A stretch of DNA of 12,310 nucleotides from a virus (Duplodnaviria; Heunggongvirae; Uroviricota; Caudoviricetes): the IMG/VR virus record IMGVR_UViG_2913192161_000002, positions 1-12,310 of that record; one strand, given 5' to 3'. How positions within the stretch are numbered: the first letter of the stretch is position 1; every line of letters begins with the position of its first letter. Under the pieces are notes generated by a model. The model saw only the letters and a program-made list of their open reading frames with translations, was not told the origin of the DNA and did no database searches. Positions 33-11,722 of this stretch are shown here, in pieces. The position numbers were made by a program, and so were the translations under genes.

Positions 33-359
33 TTACTCCTTCGAGCTACCAAATTTGTTACCGATTACTCGCATTGCAGCCCCACGAATAGCATCGACAC
101 CGATCAGCCCAACGCCGCCACCAATGGCAACAGAAAGTGATTTAGGCCATCCGACATACTCAAGAGCGGATGCAAAAGTCAGCGTCAGAGCGCCACAGAG
201 TAGAATTTCGAGTGTTTTTCGCTTCCAGCCGCCACCACCGCCAAAATAGGCAATACGTAAACCAGCCATAACAATCGACATAATCACTGCGCCCAGCGGT
301 GTGTCTCCACGCCACCAGCTCTGGACCAACTCCAGCCAGGTATTTGGGTTATGAGGCAT
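33..359 (-). CDS. Holin (lambda S-like, glycine-rich transmembrane segments, charged C-terminal tail)
   Basis: 108 aa ORF with hydrophobic Gly-rich stretches (AYFGGGGGW, AIGGGVGLIGVD) and a basic C-terminus, sitting immediately upstream of the endolysin start. AGGTGAGAG ribosome-binding site before the ATG at 359. Architecture resembles lambda S. Confidence 0.8.
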   Translation of the reverse strand: MPHNPNTWLELVQSWWRGDTPLGAVIMSIVMAGLRIAYFGGGGGWKRKTLEILLCGALTLTFASALEYVGWPKSLSVAIGGGVGLIGVDAIRGAAMRVIGNKFGSSKE

Positions 360-510: not shown

Positions 511-537
511 AAAACCCGCTCGACGGCGGGTTTAAGC
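511..537 (-). terminator. Rho-independent terminator, candidate tR' of the late leader transcript
   Basis: On the minus strand a GC-rich hairpin CCCGC(cgtcga)GCGGG is followed by TTTTGTCGTTT. It lies about 150 nt upstream of the holin start and downstream of the candidate late promoter. Confidence 0.55.
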
Positions 538-599
538 TGTGTGGCGAAGTAACCACTCTTAACACAGTAACGCAATTTTTGCGGACCGCGATAATGTTT

Positions 600-608
600 T
601 TTATACCA
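600..608 (-). promoter_or_regulatory. Candidate Q-dependent late promoter pR' (extended -10, TGgTATAAA)
   Basis: Minus strand reads TTTGGTATAAAAAAC, giving a TG-extended -10 hexamer TATAAA about 65-90 nt upstream of the terminator at 511-537. No good -35. Placement is by analogy to lambda pR'-qut-tR'. Confidence 0.3.
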
Positions 609-654
609 AAAAAAGGTATTTTATGGAAAAAAATCAAGACATAGCGAGCAAAGA

Positions 655-1524
655 GTGACTAAAACAACTTCTTTTCAGATCTTCTACGATGCAGAGGATA
701 ACGAATTAGCACAGCATAAAATTGATGCCAAAACATTAAGCATCTCCATAGGTTCGATGGCAGATTTAATATCAGCAGCTGATAAAAGACTTAATGACGG
801 CCAACAAACCGTTAAGTTAATGGTTACTAATCCAGCAGAAGCGGGATCACTCGGCGTATCCTATACCATGATGGAGCTTGTTCCTCATGCCGTCGACGTC
901 GCAAAAGTGATTGGCCTAACAGGGATAGCCGGGGCTGCTATTGGAGCTCCAGCATTATCACTAATCCGCCAACTGGGCAGCAAGAAAGTAATTTCGGTAA
1001 CAAAACGGGCAGGAACAGAAGAATCTGTTCTTGAACTTGAAGGGGAAGAAATTGTTTGCCATGACTCAGTGGCTAAGTTAGTAACAGATCCTGAAGTCCG
1101 TGATGCCCTTGTGAATGTAGTTCGTGCACCATTAGACGGCAAACAAGGTGCAGTATTTAAGGTGCTAAATGATGAAGGCGAAGAAGTCGTTCGTCTTGAA
1201 GGAAGTGAAACCGAAGAGATCAAACCGCTGCCTAGAGGTACACTACTTGAAAAAGAAGAGTCTGTAGAAGAAGTCAATGTTAGATTCGTACAGATCAACT
1301 TCGAGGGTACAAAGGGTTGGAGAATCGATTATTTAGGCGAGGAGCATGCTGTTACCTTTGAAGATCAGTTGTTTATACACCAAGTTCAAAATGGAATCAT
1401 CAGTTTTACAAAAGAAGATTTGTTTGTTGTTGAGCTAAAAACTATAAAAACTTTCACTGCGCGAAATGCCACAACCAAGTATGCTATAACCAAAGTAAAA
1501 CGAAAACGCCCTGCTGAGGCTTGA
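655..1524 (+). CDS. Hypothetical protein, 289 aa, with one glycine-zipper-like hydrophobic segment; first gene of a three-gene accessory cassette
   Basis: Long ORF opposite to the flanking phage late genes and visibly more AT-rich. Internal hydrophobic Gly-rich segment VIGLTGIAGAAIGAPALSLI, an acidic middle region and a basic C-terminal tail KVKRKRPAEA. Start is uncertain: GTG at 655 sits directly against AAAGAG, and the next in-frame ATG is at 757. No family recognised. Confidence 0.65.
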   Translation: MTKTTSFQIFYDAEDNELAQHKIDAKTLSISIGSMADLISAADKRLNDGQQTVKLMVTNPAEAGSLGVSYTMMELVPHAVDVAKVIGLTGIAGAAIGAPALSLIRQLGSKKVISVTKRAGTEESVLELEGEEIVCHDSVAKLVTDPEVRDALVNVVRAPLDGKQGAVFKVLNDEGEEVVRLEGSETEEIKPLPRGTLLEKEESVEEVNVRFVQINFEGTKGWRIDYLGEEHAVTFEDQLFIHQVQNGIISFTKEDLFVVELKTIKTFTARNATTKYAITKVKRKRPAEA

Positions 1525-1790
1525 CAAAAGTGACACTGAACATGCAGATAGCACAACTGATCTTCTGGATAGGGGTGATAATGATCATCCCTGCCTTTAG
1601 TCGTTTTTGCTATTCAGCGTCAGCCTTGCTTTGGCGTCGACTATTCCCTACAAAAGTCTTCGAATTCCGATATCACGATGAAGAATCCGGAGTGACCAAG
1701 ACGCTAGTAATAAAAGTTCCAAGTAAAAAGGGAAAAATGCTAACAACCCTCATTGAAGAGGCAATTGCGGAGAATTCAAAACGAAAATGA
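1521..1790 (+). CDS. Small membrane protein, up to 89 aa, one N-terminal transmembrane helix and a charged C-terminal tail
   Basis: ORF overlaps the upstream stop (TTGA at 1521-1524); alternative starts are GTG at 1530 and ATG at 1542. Hydrophobic segment IAQLIFWIGVIMIIPAF followed by a Lys/Glu-rich tail. Its stop overlaps the next start (ATGA at 1787-1790). Confidence 0.55.
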   Translation: MTKVTLNMQIAQLIFWIGVIMIIPAFSRFCYSASALLWRRLFPTKVFEFRYHDEESGVTKTLVIKVPSKKGKMLTTLIEEAIAENSKRK

Positions 1791-2209
1791 ATTCTCAAAC
1801 TAAAGGTCTAAGCACAGGAAAAGCTACCCTTTCAACTGGTGGTTGGGGAGCAATTCTAAGTGTTCTTGTTAGCGCGATTTTAACCGACCCTAATAGCGTG
1901 TGGCGAACTGTAGCCTACGCATTAGTACCGGGTGTTGCGGCAACTTTAACTTACGTCATGAATTGGTTTATTTCGAGGCATGGTTTCGAATCTCCAGAAG
2001 ACGCAGCCAAAAGAGCAAAATGCAAGCGTGATTTGGCTGAGATTGAGAAGCAGTTACGATCTGACCACTTAAGTCCTGAAATAAAATCAACATTGATGCA
2101 GGCTAAAGCAAGAACAATCGAAATTTTGGTATCAATCGGAAGGGAATCTATACTCGAAACATCTGCGCGTAACATTACACCATCAGAAACTGCCGATCCG
2201 CAAAGCTGA
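1787..2209 (+). CDS. Membrane protein, 140 aa, two predicted transmembrane helices and a charged helical C-terminal domain (holin-like topology)
   Basis: ATG at 1787 overlaps the preceding stop. Two hydrophobic segments (GGWGAILSVLVSAIL and VAYALVPGVAATLTYVMNWFI) followed by a Lys/Arg/Glu-rich region. No family recognised. Confidence 0.6.
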   Translation: MNSQTKGLSTGKATLSTGGWGAILSVLVSAILTDPNSVWRTVAYALVPGVAATLTYVMNWFISRHGFESPEDAAKRAKCKRDLAEIEKQLRSDHLSPEIKSTLMQAKARTIEILVSIGRESILETSARNITPSETADPQS

Positions 2210-2220
2210 GCGGCAGTTTC
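2186..2220. terminator. Perfect 10-bp inverted repeat stem-loop at the convergent junction of the cassette and Q
   Basis: GAAACTGCCG (2186-2195) and CGGCAGTTTC (2211-2220) are exact reverse complements with a 15-nt loop containing the stop of the 140 aa gene. Followed on the plus strand by TATTCT, a weak U-tract. Confidence 0.4.
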
Positions 2221-2232
2221 TATTCTGGTAGT

Positions 2233-2598
2233 CTATTGGTCCATTTCCAGACAAAGATCAAGCATTGAGAGACAGCCTTCAACAAAACCCTCAGCCATCT
2301 GTATCTCAATGCGTATTAGTTTCTCATCCTTTTTACGAGCTTTGGCGAGCTTTCTTTTAGAGATACCGTATAGGTAATGGGCAACAAGAAGCGAATGTTC
2401 GTCTGGCCTTTTTTGCTTTAGACGAGCAAGACAACCTTCAATAATTAATGCATCACTATCTGAACAAGCCTGACGTGTTTTGCTTGTATAGGGAAGAAGC
2501 CCCTTAAACCCAGCAGCTATAGGCGAATAGTCTACTCCTGAACTATCACTCGCCGCCCATGCACCCCAACGCTCAAGAATCATCTGAATATCACGCAT
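2233..2598 (-). CDS. Q: Late-gene antiterminator Q (DLP12 QuuD-like family)
   Basis: Translation MRDIQMILERWGAWAA... closely matches the N-terminus of E. coli QuuD as I recall it. Start placed at ATG 2598, preceded by GGGGAAAG; the ORF-track TTG start at 2613 adds 5 codons. Position is between rusA and the lysis genes. Confidence 0.85.
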   Translation of the reverse strand: MRDIQMILERWGAWAASDSSGVDYSPIAAGFKGLLPYTSKTRQACSDSDALIIEGCLARLKQKRPDEHSLLVAHYLYGISKRKLAKARKKDEKLIRIEIQMAEGFVEGCLSMLDLCLEMDQ

Positions 2599-2621
2599 CA
2601 ACTTTCCCCACAAAAATCAGG

Positions 2622-3984: not shown

Positions 3985-4495
3985 GCTTCACCTCCGCAGA
4001 GGTCAAACGTTGGATGCAAAAAATCGCAGGTGCATTTCTGCAACTGTGAAGGGAGAAGAGAGTTTGGATTGTGTGTGCGCATAAACGTCCCCGTTTAGCG
4101 CAGAAGTCACCGGAGGTGTTCAGGCTCCGATGACATGATTATGGCGAGTTGATTATGGAAAATCAATTGAAGATGAAATTCAACAATGCCCCATGGTGCT
4201 ATGGCGCTCAATTAATTATATAACTTCAGAGAAAACTGATAACCCATTGATGATCACATTAGCTCAGACTAAGAAGACTGACAACGGGGACGAACATGAA
4301 CAGCAACGCCTGACATAGGTAAATCTCAAAAGCGAATCATATAATCCTTACCCCATCACTCAGAGACATCGCATAATAACATTCATACCACTATATAACC
4401 TCCAAATAACAACAACAATTCATTGGTTGCATTAATATCAGCGTGTTCCGTTGTTCAGGAATAAAACTTTTTATTTAACAAACAAAGAGAGTTCA

Positions 4496-5173
4496 ATGAT
4501 GAGCAAAATTACAGGCGTGTTAGTTGATAGCCATATCTATGATATTAAAAATGATATGGAGAGTGGTTACTGTTTCCCTAACAGTTTGTTCCCAGGAGCA
4601 ACCTTCAAGATGGTCATTGATAATGACCCTATTAATAATGACAAGGTAAAATGGACCTGTAGCACTAATGCAGACAATAATGTTCTGGCGGTTAGCCAGG
4701 ATGGCACAGTAACTTTTCCGGGCGTAGATGAAAAGTGCGTTGGGAAGATTTTTGTCATTTTCGCCACTGATAAATCAACAAACAAATCTGCCGGCATCTA
4801 TGTTTTTATTGTGAAGCGTTTTTTCAAATACAGCATTGAACTTTATAACTCAGTTAAAGATATTTTACCGTGGATTGAAAACATGAACGGGAATTTTCCT
4901 GAGGCACGTGACATCTATAGTTACGATTATGATAACTATAGTGGACCGCATATTATCAATCGAGAAGTTAACGCAGGGCTTTACCAGGAATGGGGCACGT
5001 TATCTAATAGTGGATGGGACGCAAGTTGTGAGCTTGAGGGTATTTGTAGCATTTACGCTTTTGATAAAGACAATAATACTTATTATTGCCTGCGTGATTA
5101 TGGAGAAATAGAGTGTATTGATCGTTTTTGCGTCGCTCAGGCAGTTGCATCCTACGGAGAATCCATCGACTGA
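4496..5173 (+). CDS. Hypothetical cysteine-rich protein, 226 aa from ATG 4496, possible Ig-like N-terminal region; lone accessory gene
   Basis: Strongly AT-rich ORF opposite to the phage operon, flanked by about 0.5 kb and 0.28 kb of AT-rich non-coding DNA. AAAGAGAG ribosome-binding site before the tandem ATGs at 4496/4499. Eight Cys, many Asn/Asp/Tyr. The segment VKWTCSTNADNNVLAVSQDGTVTFPG resembles bacterial Ig-like (Big_2-type) strands. No clear signal peptide. Confidence 0.55.
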   Translation: MMSKITGVLVDSHIYDIKNDMESGYCFPNSLFPGATFKMVIDNDPINNDKVKWTCSTNADNNVLAVSQDGTVTFPGVDEKCVGKIFVIFATDKSTNKSAGIYVFIVKRFFKYSIELYNSVKDILPWIENMNGNFPEARDIYSYDYDNYSGPHIINREVNAGLYQEWGTLSNSGWDASCELEGICSIYAFDKDNNTYYCLRDYGEIECIDRFCVAQAVASYGESID

Positions 5174-5452: not shown

Positions 5453-6058
5453 CTACTGCTCAGAACGCAAATGCGGCAATACTCGGCTCCACTTATCATC
5501 CTGCCACGGCTGGAATCTTACATGTGCCGTTTCTCTGGCAAGGATTTCGCGCGCCTTATGTAGTATCTGGGGATATTCTTGCTCAATAGAAGTAAAGCGA
5601 CCGGCTTCGCGATGCTCCGCAACCTGAAGAAGTGGAGTAATATTCTGGCAGGCGGTTAACATCACATCCCCTGCTCGCCATAACCAGGCGAGTGTGCAAA
5701 GTTCGTTATCAGTGAATTGTTTTGTGATTGGGGATTGTTGAACTTCTCGATCGAGAATATCCAGAACCCAGCGGCGGAATTCTTTGGCTACAGGAGTGCG
5801 GGCGAACATAGCGATCAAATGGGCACCACGGAGGGAGAAAATGCGTATTGTTTTCTGGTAGTTCCCTGAGACACTCAAATTGAGGGTCTCAGTCATATCT
5901 GCCCTAAATTCATCGGAATTTCGATCGTAGATCTGAGTTACGGCATCAGATTTTTTATATCCGAGAGCTTGAGCAATCTCAACGGCAGTAAGCCAGATAC
6001 TGTTGTTGTGTTTAACAGGATGGAATTTTGTTTGATGAAAGACTAGTTGTGTGCTCAT
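5453..6058 (-). CDS. Bro-N/AntA-like domain protein (putative antirepressor-type regulator)
   Basis: 201 aa. The N-terminus LVFHQTKFHPVKHNNSIWLTAVEIAQALGYKKSDAVTQIYDRNSDEF fits the Bro-N/AntA pattern (F..F..V....W..A.D/EIA..LGY) from memory. The C-terminal domain is not recognised. Confidence 0.5.
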   Translation of the reverse strand: MSTQLVFHQTKFHPVKHNNSIWLTAVEIAQALGYKKSDAVTQIYDRNSDEFRADMTETLNLSVSGNYQKTIRIFSLRGAHLIAMFARTPVAKEFRRWVLDILDREVQQSPITKQFTDNELCTLAWLWRAGDVMLTACQNITPLLQVAEHREAGRFTSIEQEYPQILHKAREILARETAHVRFQPWQDDKWSRVLPHLRSEQ

Positions 6059-6211
6059 GATGATTACCTATAAATCAAGTTAACCACCACCGCTGACGCC
6101 AATCAGTTTGGTGGTGAGACATGTAGGGTTGGCGTAACCGGGGTAATCAACCGGCCCGACCGAAGTCGGCCCTACACGCCCCACCATAATTCAGATGTGC
6201 GTATGCTTACG

Positions 6212-6238
6212 ACAATAAAAAACACGCTCGCGGCGTGT
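6212..6238 (-). terminator. Rho-independent terminator downstream of ren (tR2-like position)
   Basis: On the minus strand a 6-bp stem ACACGC(cgcga)GCGTGT is followed by TTTTTTATTG, about 100 nt after the ren stop. Confidence 0.6.
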
Positions 6239-6333
6239 AGTAGTCGCGATTACCTTATCCGGGACGCCAATCCCGTGTGCCGATTTTGCGGCAACGCACA
6301 GAATATAGCGCCAGATATTAGTTATCGTCAACC

Positions 6334-10073: not shown

Positions 10074-11213
10074 ATGGCAGCGGTTGAATTTCAATTGTCT
10101 AGGAAGATGATTGATTGGATAGCAAATTCTCAAGGAGTTTCTATCGAAACTCTTGCTGACCAAGTCATGCCCAAAAAGATTAATAAATTTCTTAACGGAG
10201 TGGTAAGTAAATCCGCAGCAGAAAAACTGGCAAAAATTGGAGGAATCCCTTTCGGTTTTTTATTTCTTGAAACGCCACCAACTCCAGCCAAACCCAAGAT
10301 CCCTGACTTAAGGCAAGCTATAAATAGCCGTGAGTTAGGAAAAGATTTTTTTGATGTTTACTATGATATAGAATATAAACTTGAGTGGTACAAAGACTAT
10401 TTAAGAGAAAATGGTAATGATGATCCACTCGATTTTATTGGTAAATTTAAATTTAATAGAAAATTAAATTATAAGGTTGTTGCTACAGACATAGCAAACA
10501 CAATACATTTTGATATACAAAAAGAGATAAAAAATGTCACTTTTGAGAGCTATTTTTCTAAAGTGGCAAAACTAATAGAAGACACTGGCGTATTAGTTTT
10601 CAAGAATGGTGTTGTGGGTAATAATAATAAAAGAAAACTTGACACGCGAGAGTTTCGTGGTTTCTGTATATCTGATAGCGTTGCTCCGATCATTTTTGTA
10701 AATAGCTCGGACGCGTTATCTGCGCAGGTATTTACATTATTTCATGAGGTGGCTCATCTTTGGCTTGGAGTCGATGGAGTCTCTGGGTGGGACACAGAAA
10801 AAAACATAGAATCTTTTTGTAATAAAGTTGCTGCTGAAATCTTAATGCCTGATAATCTCTTCAAATCTTTCTGGCTTAATGCATCCAGCGATAATAATTA
10901 TTATCGAGTAAAAGAGGTTTCTAAGTTATTTAAGGTTAGTGATTTCGCTTGTGCAATCAAAGCGTTACAATTAGATTTGATAGAAAGAAACACTTTGGAG
11001 ATAATTAAAGATCAAGCTTACAATAAGCCCAAAAAAGAATCTAATGGTGGTTCTTTCTTTAACACATTACCTGTTCGTAACAGTCCAAAACTTACGAATA
11101 TAATAATTTCCAAAGCAATGTCTCAACAATTACCATTAAGGGAAGCAGGCGTACTGCTAAATGTAAAAGCAGATACAGTTGTTGAATTTTATAAAAAACG
11201 AGAATCTCTATGA
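10074..11213 (+). CDS. HTH-domain plus ImmA/IrrE-family zinc metallopeptidase (HEXXH)
   Basis: 379 aa. N-terminal region has an XRE-like HTH pattern (SIETLADQV...KKINKFLNG). Central HEVAH motif in the context FTLFHEVAHLWLG is typical of ImmA/IrrE (Peptidase M78) proteins. AGGTGA ribosome-binding site. Very AT-rich compared with cI. The stop overlaps the next start (ATGA). Confidence 0.75.
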   Translation: MAAVEFQLSRKMIDWIANSQGVSIETLADQVMPKKINKFLNGVVSKSAAEKLAKIGGIPFGFLFLETPPTPAKPKIPDLRQAINSRELGKDFFDVYYDIEYKLEWYKDYLRENGNDDPLDFIGKFKFNRKLNYKVVATDIANTIHFDIQKEIKNVTFESYFSKVAKLIEDTGVLVFKNGVVGNNNKRKLDTREFRGFCISDSVAPIIFVNSSDALSAQVFTLFHEVAHLWLGVDGVSGWDTEKNIESFCNKVAAEILMPDNLFKSFWLNASSDNNYYRVKEVSKLFKVSDFACAIKALQLDLIERNTLEIIKDQAYNKPKKESNGGSFFNTLPVRNSPKLTNIIISKAMSQQLPLREAGVLLNVKADTVVEFYKKRESL

Positions 11214-11722
11214 TTCATAATGGAAAATTCTTAATTGATAGTAATGTCTTCATAGAGGCAAAAAACTTTGCATATAACTTCAATTATTGCAAAATATTTT
11301 GGGATTTTCTTCTCGCTTTACACATGAATGGTCTGATTTATAGCATTAATGCTGTAAAAAAAGAACTATGTGCAAAAGATGATCCATTGTGTAAATGGAT
11401 TAAAGAAGAGTTACCATCATCATTCTTCGAAGATGAGCATAGTTCAATAGAAAATTATGCAAAGTTAATAAATTGGTCAACTAAATTAGATGTTACCGAA
11501 AAGGCAAAGTTTGATTTTGCAAGCCATGAAAAAGCAGATGCTTTTTTAATAGCCCATGCGATGACACATGGATATACTATTATTACCCATGAGAAACCAT
11601 CCGGTGGCAAACCTAAAAAAAGAATAATGATCCCGGATGCTGCTGCTTCTCACGGCGTTAAGACATTAACACTATATGAATTTCTTCCAAGATACGCTAG
11701 TCATAATTTTTCTTTGAAATAA
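11210..11722 (+). CDS. PIN-like nuclease-fold protein (DUF4411-like)
   Basis: 170 aa, translationally coupled to the upstream metallopeptidase gene. The N-terminal FLIDSNVFIEA matches the first PIN beta-strand with its conserved Asp, and further acidic residues follow. From memory, DUF4411 proteins typically pair with HTH/ImmA-type partners. Confidence 0.6.
   Translation: MIHNGKFLIDSNVFIEAKNFAYNFNYCKIFWDFLLALHMNGLIYSINAVKKELCAKDDPLCKWIKEELPSSFFEDEHSSIENYAKLINWSTKLDVTEKAKFDFASHEKADAFLIAHAMTHGYTIITHEKPSGGKPKKRIMIPDAAASHGVKTLTLYEFLPRYASHNFSLK

What the first reader, a model, noticed from the sequence alone, without database searches (positions are those of the whole stretch)
655..2220. Three-gene, translationally coupled cassette on the opposite strand, wedged between Q and the late promoter/holin
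The genes encode 289 aa, 89 aa and 140 aa proteins with overlapping stop/start codons (TTGA at 1521-1524, ATGA at 1787-1790). They are AT-rich relative to the phage backbone and transcribed against the late operon. The first protein has a single glycine-zipper-like hydrophobic segment and no family I can recognise. The second and third are small membrane proteins with one and two transmembrane helices and charged tails, a holin-like topology. The Q-to-S junction is a classic cargo site (stx, nmpC, bor). A soluble partner plus two small membrane effectors is the architecture expected of a membrane-targeting abortive-infection or superinfection-exclusion module. A second possibility is an auxiliary lysis-timing cassette.
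Basis: partly seen in the sequence, partly recalled or inferred. Interest (0 to 1): 0.8.

Follow-up and report, generated by a model that had tools for sequence, protein, structure and literature searches.

The report
Candidate three-gene phage-defence cassette in prophage
A real, widely conserved three-gene operon (one mostly soluble protein plus two small membrane proteins) sits in a prophage slot that in related prophages carries known anti-phage systems, so it is most likely an uncharacterised phage-defence module, but its function has not been tested.

Summary
Three tightly packed + strand genes (g1 655-1524, g2 about 1530-1790, g3 1787-2209) lie between the Q antiterminator gene and the late-promoter/holin region of a reversed lambdoid prophage. 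All three are under purifying selection.

One correction: g2 most likely starts at GTG 1530 (86 aa), not at the TTG of the "TTGA" overlap.

The triad of about 290 aa + one-TM 71-89 aa + two-TM 114-140 aa persists down to about 25% g1 identity. It occurs at Q junctions of enterobacterial prophages, in a P2-like prophage, on Pseudomonas megaplasmids and in other islands. More distant g1 relatives stand alone, some next to restriction-modification genes.

g1 matches NCBIfam LAPAL_fam, PHROG 3243 and the untested PADLOC candidate PDC-S42. Its model has a C-terminal OB-like barrel and no relative among solved structures. g2 and g3 match nothing.

In other E. coli prophages the same slot, in the same orientation, holds Kiwa, TIR-TM, a DUF262/PD-T4-2-like gene with a HEPN nuclease, PDC-S60 and the nmpC porin.

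Best reading: an uncharacterised, membrane-associated anti-phage module, either abortive infection or exclusion. A lysis-timing or virion-structural role is unlikely. No experiment or paper on it was found.

The parts
33..359 (-). Lambda-family holin gene, the first late lysis gene. It marks the late-operon side of the junction.
   Evidence: PF05106 E 5.7e-25. PGAP annotates it as 'phage holin, lambda family' in the near-identical locus L013.
511..603 (.). Conserved Q-proximal block, probably the late-promoter/leader region. It carries a - strand terminator-like hairpin at 533-512 and the invariant motifs ACCACTCTTAACA and TGCGGACCGC. It forms the left border of the cargo slot.
   Evidence: The block is found in 2564 of 5426 complete E. 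coli genomes. It abuts the Q stop codon in the cargo-less phage PhiR5_1. It is conserved across loci whose Q proteins differ widely. Terminator scan. The late promoter itself was not mapped.
567..595 (+). Weak candidate sigma-70 promoter for the cassette (GTAACG, 17 nt spacer, GATAAT), lying inside the conserved block.
   Evidence: Read from the sequence; it matches only 8 of 12 consensus positions. The equivalent GTTACA-18-AATAAT in L020 was flagged at 9 of 12, but this is not above chance expectation. Inference only.
623..658 (+). An 11-codon upstream ORF (MEKNQDIASKE). Its TGA stop overlaps the GTG start of g1 (GTGA at 655-658). It contains an A7 run at 627-633.
   Evidence: Sequence. The A7 run is present in 12 of the 13 sequences that carry this upstream motif (the window and 11 of 12 related loci). 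An A8 variant in strain Ec-U11 fuses the uORF to g1, which gives PGAP's 300-aa call. The uORF is not conserved in distant loci.
655..1524 (+). g1, 289 aa. It belongs to the LAPAL_fam / PHROG 3243 / PADLOC PDC-S42 family. It has an N-terminal alpha/beta region, a conserved hydrophobic Gly-rich linker (residues 79-104), a middle alpha/beta domain and a C-terminal OB-like barrel (about residues 195-287).
1530..1790 (+). g2, 86 aa from GTG 1530 (89 aa if it starts at TTG 1521). It has an N-terminal TM helix and a basic cytoplasmic tail of about 50 aa.
   Evidence: No match in Pfam, PHROGs, NCBIfam or PADLOC. It is conserved next to g1 in all 48 IMG/VR loci and in distant triads. dN/dS is 0.08-0.43 where dS could be measured. 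Others call it as 86 aa.
1787..2209 (+). g3, 140 aa. It has a two-helix TM hairpin (about 18-31 and 38-65), a conserved RHG-x-ESP motif and a helical tail of about 75 aa.
   Evidence: Hydropathy. The AlphaFold2 model has four helices but low confidence (pLDDT 58). No family hits. Purifying selection.
2185..2221 (.). Strong hairpin over the g3 stop codon, between the convergent g3 and Q genes. It looks like a bidirectional terminator, with UUUCUAUUCU following it on the + strand.
   Evidence: Free energy is -21.9 kcal/mol (+ strand) and -23.7 kcal/mol (- strand), z-scores -4.1 and -4.6, and 0 of 200 shuffles fold as well. Other hairpins occupy the same position in cdtI and Klebsiella loci.
2233..2613 (-). 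Q antiterminator gene (PF06530, QuuD-like), convergent with the cassette. It forms the right border of the slot.
   Evidence: PF06530 E 1.1e-52. A Q gene of this family at 52-98% identity follows the triad in every lambdoid locus examined.

Best explanation
The cassette is a self-contained accessory operon (uORF-g1-g2-g3) carried as cargo in the slot between Q and the late promoter of a lambdoid prophage. It most likely protects the lysogen against other phages.

**Proposed mechanism (inferred, not shown)**
- In the lysogen the operon is transcribed rightwards from a promoter in or beside the conserved late-promoter block, and ends at the hairpin over the g3 stop codon.
- g2 (one TM) and g3 (TM hairpin) sit in the inner membrane with their tails in the cytoplasm.
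- g1 docks on them or on the membrane through its conserved hydrophobic Gly-rich segment.
- g1 uses its C-terminal OB-like barrel and basic tail to recognise a phage-derived nucleic acid or nucleoprotein.
- Recognition makes g2/g3 compromise the membrane, so the infection aborts. This is the same logic as lambda RexA/RexB.
- On induction of the resident prophage, antiterminated early-right transcription running through Q into the cassette in antisense could silence it and spare the host phage.

**Shown**
- The genes are real.
- The triad is conserved and mobile.
- The TM topology is conserved.
- g1 has an OB-like domain.
- The slot holds defence systems in other prophages.
For: - **Real operon.** pN is far below pS for all three genes. 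Spacing and overlaps stay tight in every relative.
- **The triad moves as a unit.** It is found in:
  - all 48 IMG/VR loci and the Klebsiella prophages, at the Q junction;
  - a P2-like prophage, after gpA and DinI;
  - Pseudomonas megaplasmids such as pBM413;
  - other islands, one of them beside a protein matching the PADLOC 2TM_IV model.
- **The topology is conserved.** The pattern is one TM plus two TM segments; in some distant triads only one segment of the g3-like protein passes the hydropathy threshold.
- **Defence candidate.** g1 matches PADLOC PDC-S42 at E 8.8e-33.
- **Distant g1 relatives beside restriction systems.** One lies next to an SNF2 + methyltransferase + restriction-endonuclease cluster, another next to a type I HsdR locus.
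- **The slot is a defence hotspot.** In the same orientation it holds:
  - KwaA + KwaB (Kiwa);
  - TIR-TM;
  - a DUF262 protein matching NsnA/PD-T4-2_A, with a HEPN nuclease;
  - PDC-S60;
  - nmpC in K-12.
- **g1 structure.** The model has a canonical beta1-3/helix/beta4-5 OB-like barrel whose only matches are SSB/RPA-type folds. W222 and F240 are invariant family-wide.
- **Own terminator.** A strong hairpin separates g3 from Q.
Against: - There are no experimental data of any kind. PDC-S42 is only a computational candidate, and no paper mentions it, LAPAL, PHROG 3243 or the RefSeq protein ids.
- No enzymatic or known effector domain was found. g2 and g3 hit nothing.
- Whether g1 touches the membrane or g2/g3 is unknown. 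AlphaFold2 does not model residues 79-104 as a TM helix.
- The promoter is not established: the candidate matches 8 of 12 positions, and the scan is not above chance.
- The slot also holds non-defence cargo (the nmpC porin), so location alone is not proof.
- Some distant solo relatives sit among housekeeping genes.
- The direction of signalling (g1 as sensor or as effector) and the choice between abortive infection and entry block are not resolved.
Confidence: 0.5

Rival explanations
1. It is a superinfection-exclusion module. The g2/g3 inner-membrane complex, with g1 attached, blocks genome entry of incoming phages at the cytoplasmic membrane without killing the cell, in the manner of P22 SieA, T4 Imm or HK97 gp15.
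For: - It is encoded by a prophage, on the strand opposite to the lytic genes.
- It includes small inner-membrane proteins.
- No toxic or enzymatic domain is recognisable.
- An OB-like domain held at the membrane could bind entering DNA.
Against: - By the positive-inside rule almost all of the protein mass is cytoplasmic. Periplasmic exposure is only about 8-10 residues (sequence).
- The triad also sits on megaplasmids and non-phage islands, and solo g1 relatives abut restriction-modification loci. That fits general defence better than phage-specific exclusion.
Confidence: 0.2
2. It is a non-defence accessory function for the mobile element or its host. Examples would be an addiction module in which the membrane proteins are toxic and g1 neutralises them, or a lysogenic-conversion function that alters envelope physiology.
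For: - The slot also carries non-defence cargo such as the nmpC porin.
- Small membrane proteins are often toxic.
- The triad rides on many kinds of mobile element.
- A conserved soluble protein paired with small hydrophobic proteins resembles some toxin-antitoxin layouts.
Against: - g2 and g3 have conserved soluble tails and evolve under purifying selection along with g1, unlike short type I toxins.
- The PADLOC candidate status, the restriction-modification neighbours and the defence-rich slot all point to defence.
Confidence: 0.15
3. It is an auxiliary lysis-timing cassette (holin or antiholin-like), or, as the NCBIfam name suggests, a phage structural protein with helpers.
For: - It lies next to the lysis genes.
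- g2 and g3 have holin-like TM counts.
- NCBIfam labels the g1 family 'putative phage structural protein'.
Against: - It is on the opposite strand, upstream of the late promoter block, and so lies outside the late operon.
- No holin, lysis or structural family matches at E <= 1.
- The triad occurs far from lysis or virion genes: after the P2-like gpA gene, on Pseudomonas megaplasmids, and beside restriction-modification loci.
- g1 is absent from 50,697 deposited phage genomes.
Confidence: 0.04

Closest known systems
PADLOC candidate PDC-S42 / NCBIfam NF053583 (LAPAL_fam) / PHROG 3243
   Same: g1 is a member by sequence: PDLC05015 at E 8.8e-33, NF053583 at 202.7 bits against a cut-off of 60, and phrog_3243 at E 6e-61.
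   Different: - These catalogues list only the gene of about 290 aa, as a single-gene candidate, a 'putative structural protein' or 'unknown function'.
- Here it is the first gene of a conserved triad with a one-TM and a two-TM partner that no library models.
- The window protein lacks the literal LAPAL residues.
- No function has been tested.
Lambda RexA/RexB abortive-infection system
   Same: It is a prophage-encoded cytoplasmic protein of about 280-290 aa paired with small inner-membrane protein(s), expressed in the lysogen. This is the model for the proposed logic of a sensor plus a membrane effector.
   Different: - There is no homology: hhalign probability is 0.5% for g1 vs RexA and 0.3% for g3 vs RexB.
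- RexB is a single protein (four TM helices, from my own knowledge). Here there are two partners with one and two TM helices.
- The genomic location differs: Rex lies in the immunity region, this cassette at the Q junction.
Kiwa (KwaA membrane protein + KwaB DUF4868)
   Same: It is a membrane protein paired with a cytoplasmic partner of about 270-300 aa. A Kiwa operon occupies the identical Q/late-promoter slot in E. coli A27.
   Different: g1 is unrelated to KwaB (hhalign probability 0.1%). g2 and g3 do not hit KwaA models.
Rst_2TM-1TM-TIR (three-gene system from P2/P4 hotspots; recalled from Rousset et al. 2022)
   Same: It has the same architecture: a two-TM protein, a one-TM protein and a third soluble protein, carried in prophage hotspots.
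   Different: - The third protein here has no TIR domain.
- None of the three proteins hits any PADLOC model other than PDC-S42 at E <= 1.
- This resemblance comes from memory and was tested only through the PADLOC scan.

Membership tests
PADLOC PDC-S42 (defence candidate) | Match to a PDC-S42 profile HMM | tested here: met
   PDLC05015 at E 8.8e-33 over residues 4-287. Relatives L003 and L011 score E 7e-30.
PADLOC PDC-S42 (defence candidate) | Demonstrated protection against phage | not testable with these tools
   No paper mentions PDC-S42. PADLOC's PDC entries are, to my knowledge, computational candidates.
NCBIfam NF053583 LAPAL_fam | HMM score above the curated cut-off of 60 bits | tested here: met
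   202.7 bits, E 8.2e-60, over residues 7-286.
NCBIfam NF053583 LAPAL_fam | Literal LAPAL motif in the N-terminal helix | tested here: not met
   Distant members read DLAPALLA where the window protein reads AKTLSISIG (alignment A7).
NCBIfam NF053583 LAPAL_fam | Phage structural role, as implied by the family name | tested here: not met
   - The gene is outside the late operon and on the opposite strand.
- Relatives lie on megaplasmids and beside restriction-modification genes.
- No PHROG structural match.
- No virion data exist.
RexAB | Sequence or profile homology to RexA and RexB | tested here: not met
   hhalign probabilities are 0.5% and 0.3%. No RexA or RexB Pfam hit.
RexAB | Single four-TM membrane partner | tested here: not met
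   g2 has one TM and g3 has two TM helices.
Holin / antiholin | Match to a holin family; encoded within the late lysis operon on the late strand | tested here: not met
   No Pfam or PHROG holin hit at E <= 1. The genes are on the opposite strand, upstream of the late-promoter block. The true holin is at 33-359.
Holin / antiholin | Small protein with 1-3 TM helices and a charged C-terminal tail | tested here: met
   Hydropathy results. This feature is not specific to holins.
Kiwa | KwaA and KwaB (DUF4868) profile matches | tested here: not met
   No PADLOC Kwa hits. hhalign of g1 against KwaB gives probability 0.1%.
Prophage defence-hotspot cargo (Q / late-promoter slot) | Occupies the same slot and orientation as recognised defence systems, between conserved flanks | tested here: met
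   - The flanks are the block at 511-603 and the Q gene.
- Alternative cargos are Kiwa, TIR-TM, DUF262/PD-T4-2_A-like with HEPN, PDC-S60, DUF6731 + four-TM protein, and nmpC.
- The slot is empty in PhiR5_1.
- Sources.

The most novel reading that the evidence does not exclude
The triad is a new family of membrane-anchored anti-phage immunity.
- An OB-fold protein with a fold otherwise unseen among solved structures is tethered to a one-TM/two-TM membrane pair.
- It detects phage DNA or replication intermediates at the inner membrane and triggers membrane failure or blocks entry.
- Its placement convergent with Q gives built-in self-sparing, because antisense early-right transcription switches it off when the resident prophage is induced.
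- The g1 family (more than 1800 sequence clusters, with solo and triad forms) would then be a widespread and so far unrecognised defence sensor/effector.
Probability: 0.3. Interest if true: 0.75.

Novelty: new variant of a known kind. Interest (0 to 1): 0.62.

Why it matters
- **A new defence family, if confirmed.** The triad would be built from three proteins with no characterised relatives. It is present in enterobacterial prophages, a P2-like phage and Pseudomonas resistance megaplasmids.
- **The PADLOC entry would need revision.** PDC-S42 is listed as a single gene, but in a large clade it is a three-gene system. RefSeq systematically misses its middle gene.
- **The hotspot can be mined.** The slot between Q and the late promoter is flanked by a block of about 90 bp found in nearly half of complete E. 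coli genomes. It is a compact, easily searched defence hotspot in lambdoid prophages.
- **It is directly testable.** The cassette is 1.6 kb and can be cloned with its native upstream region.

Tried and rejected
**Searches that found nothing useful**
- Pfam, NCBIfam, PHROGs and PADLOC gave no match for g2 or g3.
- A profile of g1 against PDB sequences gave nothing below E 0.39.
- Foldseek against PDB gave no hit at E <= 1e-3.
- BFVD returned only uncharacterised viral proteins.
- The AlphaFold-database library (afdb50) was unavailable.
- The g3 AlphaFold2 model was too uncertain (pLDDT 58) to use in a fold search.

**Homology tests that failed**
- hhalign of g1 against RexA, KwaB and cdtI DUF6731, and of g3 against RexB, all gave probabilities below 1%.
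- The phage cdtI genes at this site first looked like relatives (DNA hit). They are unrelated cargo; the 25-31% figures in the forced alignment are spurious.

**Literature**
- No paper was found for PDC-S42, the LAPAL motif, the RefSeq ids, phrog_3243 or NF053583.
- The Brenes and Laub 2025 paper on E. coli prophage defence systems is not held in the library, so I could not check whether it covers this cassette.
- The Tai and 'embedded defences' papers did not bear on it.

**Other dead ends**
- Rfam and tRNA scans found nothing in the cassette.
- The consensus promoter scan found no + strand promoter upstream of g1 in the window.
- I could not locate the late promoter by inspection.
- PGAP's 300-aa start for g1 was rejected. 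It depends on an A8 variant, whereas A7 and proteins of 287-293 aa are the norm.
Full report
**Setting.** The window is a lambdoid prophage read in reverse.
- A lambda-family holin gene lies at 33-359 (-) (PF05106, E 6e-25).
- A QuuD-type Q antiterminator gene lies at 2233-2613 (-) (PF06530, E 1e-52).
- rusA, ninB-like, replication and immunity genes follow on the - strand.
- The finding concerns three + strand ORFs between the holin gene and Q.

**Are the genes real?** Yes.
- ORFs of 289, 89 and 140 aa lie at 655-1524, 1521-1790 and 1787-2209.
- Against 13 diverged loci, non-synonymous change is far below synonymous change for all three:

| Gene | pN | pS |
|---|---|---|
| g1 | 0.04-0.44 | 0.72-0.83 |
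| g2 | 0.10-0.62 | 0.58-0.87 |
| g3 | 0.10-0.63 | 0.71-0.85 |

- This includes g2, which RefSeq PGAP leaves unannotated.
- The ATGA overlap at 1787-1790 is present, and g2 and g3 overlap in most relatives.
- The TTGA overlap exists, but g2 more likely starts at GTG 1530 (86 aa).
  - A GAGG lies 10 nt upstream of the GTG.
  - The N-termini of homologues align there, and ATG 1542 is not conserved.
  - Independent gene calls give 86 aa.
- g1 starts at GTG 655. Relatives are 287-293 aa and begin M-x-x-T-(T/S)-F.
- An 11-codon upstream ORF (623-658) ends in a TGA that overlaps this GTG.
  - Its A7 run is the norm.
  - An A8 variant in strain Ec-U11 fuses it to g1, which explains PGAP's 300-aa call.
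- The cassette has 42% GC, against 52% in the holin gene and the nin region. Q has 44%.

**The proteins.**
- **g1** matches NCBIfam LAPAL_fam (202.7 bits, cut-off 60), PHROG 3243 (function unknown) and the PADLOC candidate PDC-S42 (E 8.8e-33). It has no Pfam match.
  - An exhaustive profile search finds 1867 50%-identity clusters at E <= 1e-3. Most of the best-scoring ones are about 280-320 aa and match over their full length.
  - The AlphaFold2 model (mean pLDDT 81) shows an N-terminal beta-alpha-beta-beta unit and a poorly ordered hydrophobic Gly/Ala-rich linker (79-104, KD19 maximum 1.77).
  - It also shows a middle alpha/beta domain and a C-terminal beta1-3/helix/beta4-5 barrel.
  - Foldseek against PDB gives no hit at E <= 1e-3, and BFVD gives only uncharacterised proteins.
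  - W222 and F240 in the barrel are invariant across the family.
- **g2** has an N-terminal TM helix followed by a basic motif (LWRRLFPTK) and a tail of about 50 aa.
- **g3** has a TM hairpin, a conserved RHG-x-ESP motif and a helical tail of about 75 aa. Its model has low confidence (pLDDT 58).
- Neither g2 nor g3 matches any Pfam, PHROG, NCBIfam or PADLOC family.

**Conservation and mobility of the triad.**
- In all 48 IMG/VR loci found with g1, and in the Klebsiella prophages, g1-g2-g3 are contiguous. They are followed by a convergent Q gene of the same family, whose identity to the window's Q ranges from 52 to 98%.
- The same layout (about 286-308 aa, then one TM in 71-89 aa, then a TM hairpin in 114-140 aa) recurs at 25-37% g1 identity in quite different places:

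| Locus | Context |
|---|---|
| L067 | P2-like prophage, after gpA and DinI |
| pBM413 and about 30 others | Pseudomonas megaplasmids |
| L011 | Integrase-bearing island, beside a protein matching PADLOC 2TM_IV |
| L069 | Locus rich in S24 repressor genes |
| L071, L076 | Two short contigs |

- The TM pattern is retained in these triads, although in some only one segment of the g3-like protein passes the hydropathy threshold.
- More distant g1 relatives (21-25% identity) lack the g2/g3 pair. Their contexts are:
  - beside an SNF2 + methyltransferase + restriction-endonuclease cluster;
  - beside a type I HsdR locus;
  - near an Mrr_N protein and a transposase, with a two-TM neighbour;
  - between a response-regulator gene and P63C and IS1595-transposase genes;
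  - among housekeeping genes.
- g1 is absent from 50,697 deposited phage genomes.
- About 0.6% of complete E. coli genomes (31 of 5426) carry the cassette.

**The slot.**
- A block of about 90 bp (window 511-603) is present in 2564 of 5426 E. coli genomes. It has a - strand terminator-like hairpin at 533-512 and the invariant motifs ACCACTCTTAACA and TGCGGACCGC.
- In the cargo-less phage PhiR5_1 the block abuts the Q stop codon. It is therefore the region directly downstream of Q, where the late promoter and leader are expected. I could not map the promoter itself.
- Cargo is inserted between this block and Q, always on the strand opposite to the late genes:

| Genome | Cargo in the slot |
|---|---|
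| This window | The triad |
| Phage cdtI | Unrelated DUF6731 protein + four-TM protein |
| K-12 DLP12 | nmpC porin |
| E. coli 639 | DUF262 (NsnA/PD-T4-2_A-like) + HEPN nuclease + a cytosine methyltransferase pseudogene on the opposite strand |
| 2014C-3338 | PDC-S60 metallophosphoesterase, 1050 aa |
| 19AR0646 | TIR-TM |
| A27 | Kiwa (KwaA + KwaB) |
| 300081 | Hypothetical protein, 339 aa |

- Four of the seven alternative cargos examined match PADLOC models of known or candidate defence systems, so the slot is a defence hotspot.
- A strong hairpin (2185-2221; -22 and -24 kcal/mol; z -4.1 and -4.6) separates g3 from Q and looks like a bidirectional terminator.
- A weak + strand promoter candidate lies inside the block at 567-595. 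Its equivalent in L020 matches 9 of 12 positions, which is no better than chance.

**Interpretation.**
- The evidence points to a prophage- and plasmid-borne anti-phage module acting at the inner membrane:
  - The triad is an autonomous, mobile operon under purifying selection.
  - It sits in a defence hotspot.
  - g1 belongs to a PADLOC candidate family.
  - Some distant relatives abut restriction-modification loci.
- By analogy with RexAB, I propose that g1 senses a phage nucleic acid or nucleoprotein through its OB-like domain and acts through the g2/g3 membrane pair.
- The reverse flow (membrane sensing with a DNA-binding effector, as in Kiwa) and a non-lethal entry block are equally compatible with the sequence data.
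- Homology to RexA, RexB, KwaB and DUF6731 was tested and rejected. These are functional analogies, not family membership.
- Silencing by convergent early-right transcription on induction is plausible, but it is pure inference.
- A lysis-timing or virion-structural role is unlikely. The cassette lies outside the late operon, has no holin or structural family matches, and occurs on plasmids and beside restriction-modification genes.
- No experimental or published information was found. One potentially relevant paper, Brenes and Laub 2025, is not held in the library.

**Verdict.**
- The defence interpretation is reasonable and now better supported by context, but it remains unproven.
- The cassette is a catalogued but uncharacterised candidate. 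Its three-gene nature and its hotspot were not described in anything I could search.

Noticed in passing
window 5453-6293 (- strand): Rfam finds a C4 antisense RNA (6107-6191, 74 bits) and isrK (6217-6293, 61 bits) directly upstream of a Bro-N/P22_AR_C antirepressor-like gene (5453-6058). This looks like a P1/P7- or Gifsy-type antirepressor control module inside a lambdoid prophage.
   Followed up: partly
window 10074-11722 (+ strand): A gene pair at 33% GC lies beside the cI-like repressor: a 379-aa HTH + IrrE/M78 peptidase (PF06114; weak PADLOC capP and RmrA hits) and a 170-aa DUF4411 protein. It may be a second cargo or defence pair of the RosmerTA type.
   Followed up: partly
window 4451-5173 (+ strand): A 240-aa ORF at 38% GC lies on the strand opposite to the nin-region genes. 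It has only a sub-threshold Invasin_D4 hit and no PADLOC hit. It is probably another moron.
   Followed up: partly
window 511-603 and the same slot in L062, L078-L083, L002: The Q / late-promoter junction is a compact cargo hotspot bounded by a block of about 90 bp found in 2564 of 5426 E. coli genomes. Its contents include Kiwa, TIR-TM, DUF262 + HEPN, PDC-S60, nmpC, DUF6731 + four-TM protein, or nothing. All cargo faces Q except one methyltransferase pseudogene in L079.
   Followed up: partly
window 623-658: An 11-codon upstream ORF has a stop codon overlapping the GTG start of g1 (GTGA). It contains an A7 homopolymer. An A8 variant in strain Ec-U11 fuses it in frame to g1.
   Followed up: partly
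L001 7015-7278 and L013 11125-11388 (= window 1530-1790): RefSeq PGAP leaves g2 unannotated in E. coli genomes, although it is conserved and under purifying selection.
   Followed up: yes
L002 3580-4968 (phage cdtI orf54/orf53): The cargo of phage cdtI at this slot is a 313-aa DUF6731 protein plus a 147-aa protein with four TM helices. The layout recalls RexA/RexB. It was not compared with RexA or RexB; g1 is unrelated to the DUF6731 protein.
   Followed up: partly
L069 1-3524 and 5846-6799: One distant triad is embedded among at least six tandem HTH + S24-peptidase (repressor-like) genes. This arrangement is unusual and unexplained.
   Followed up: no
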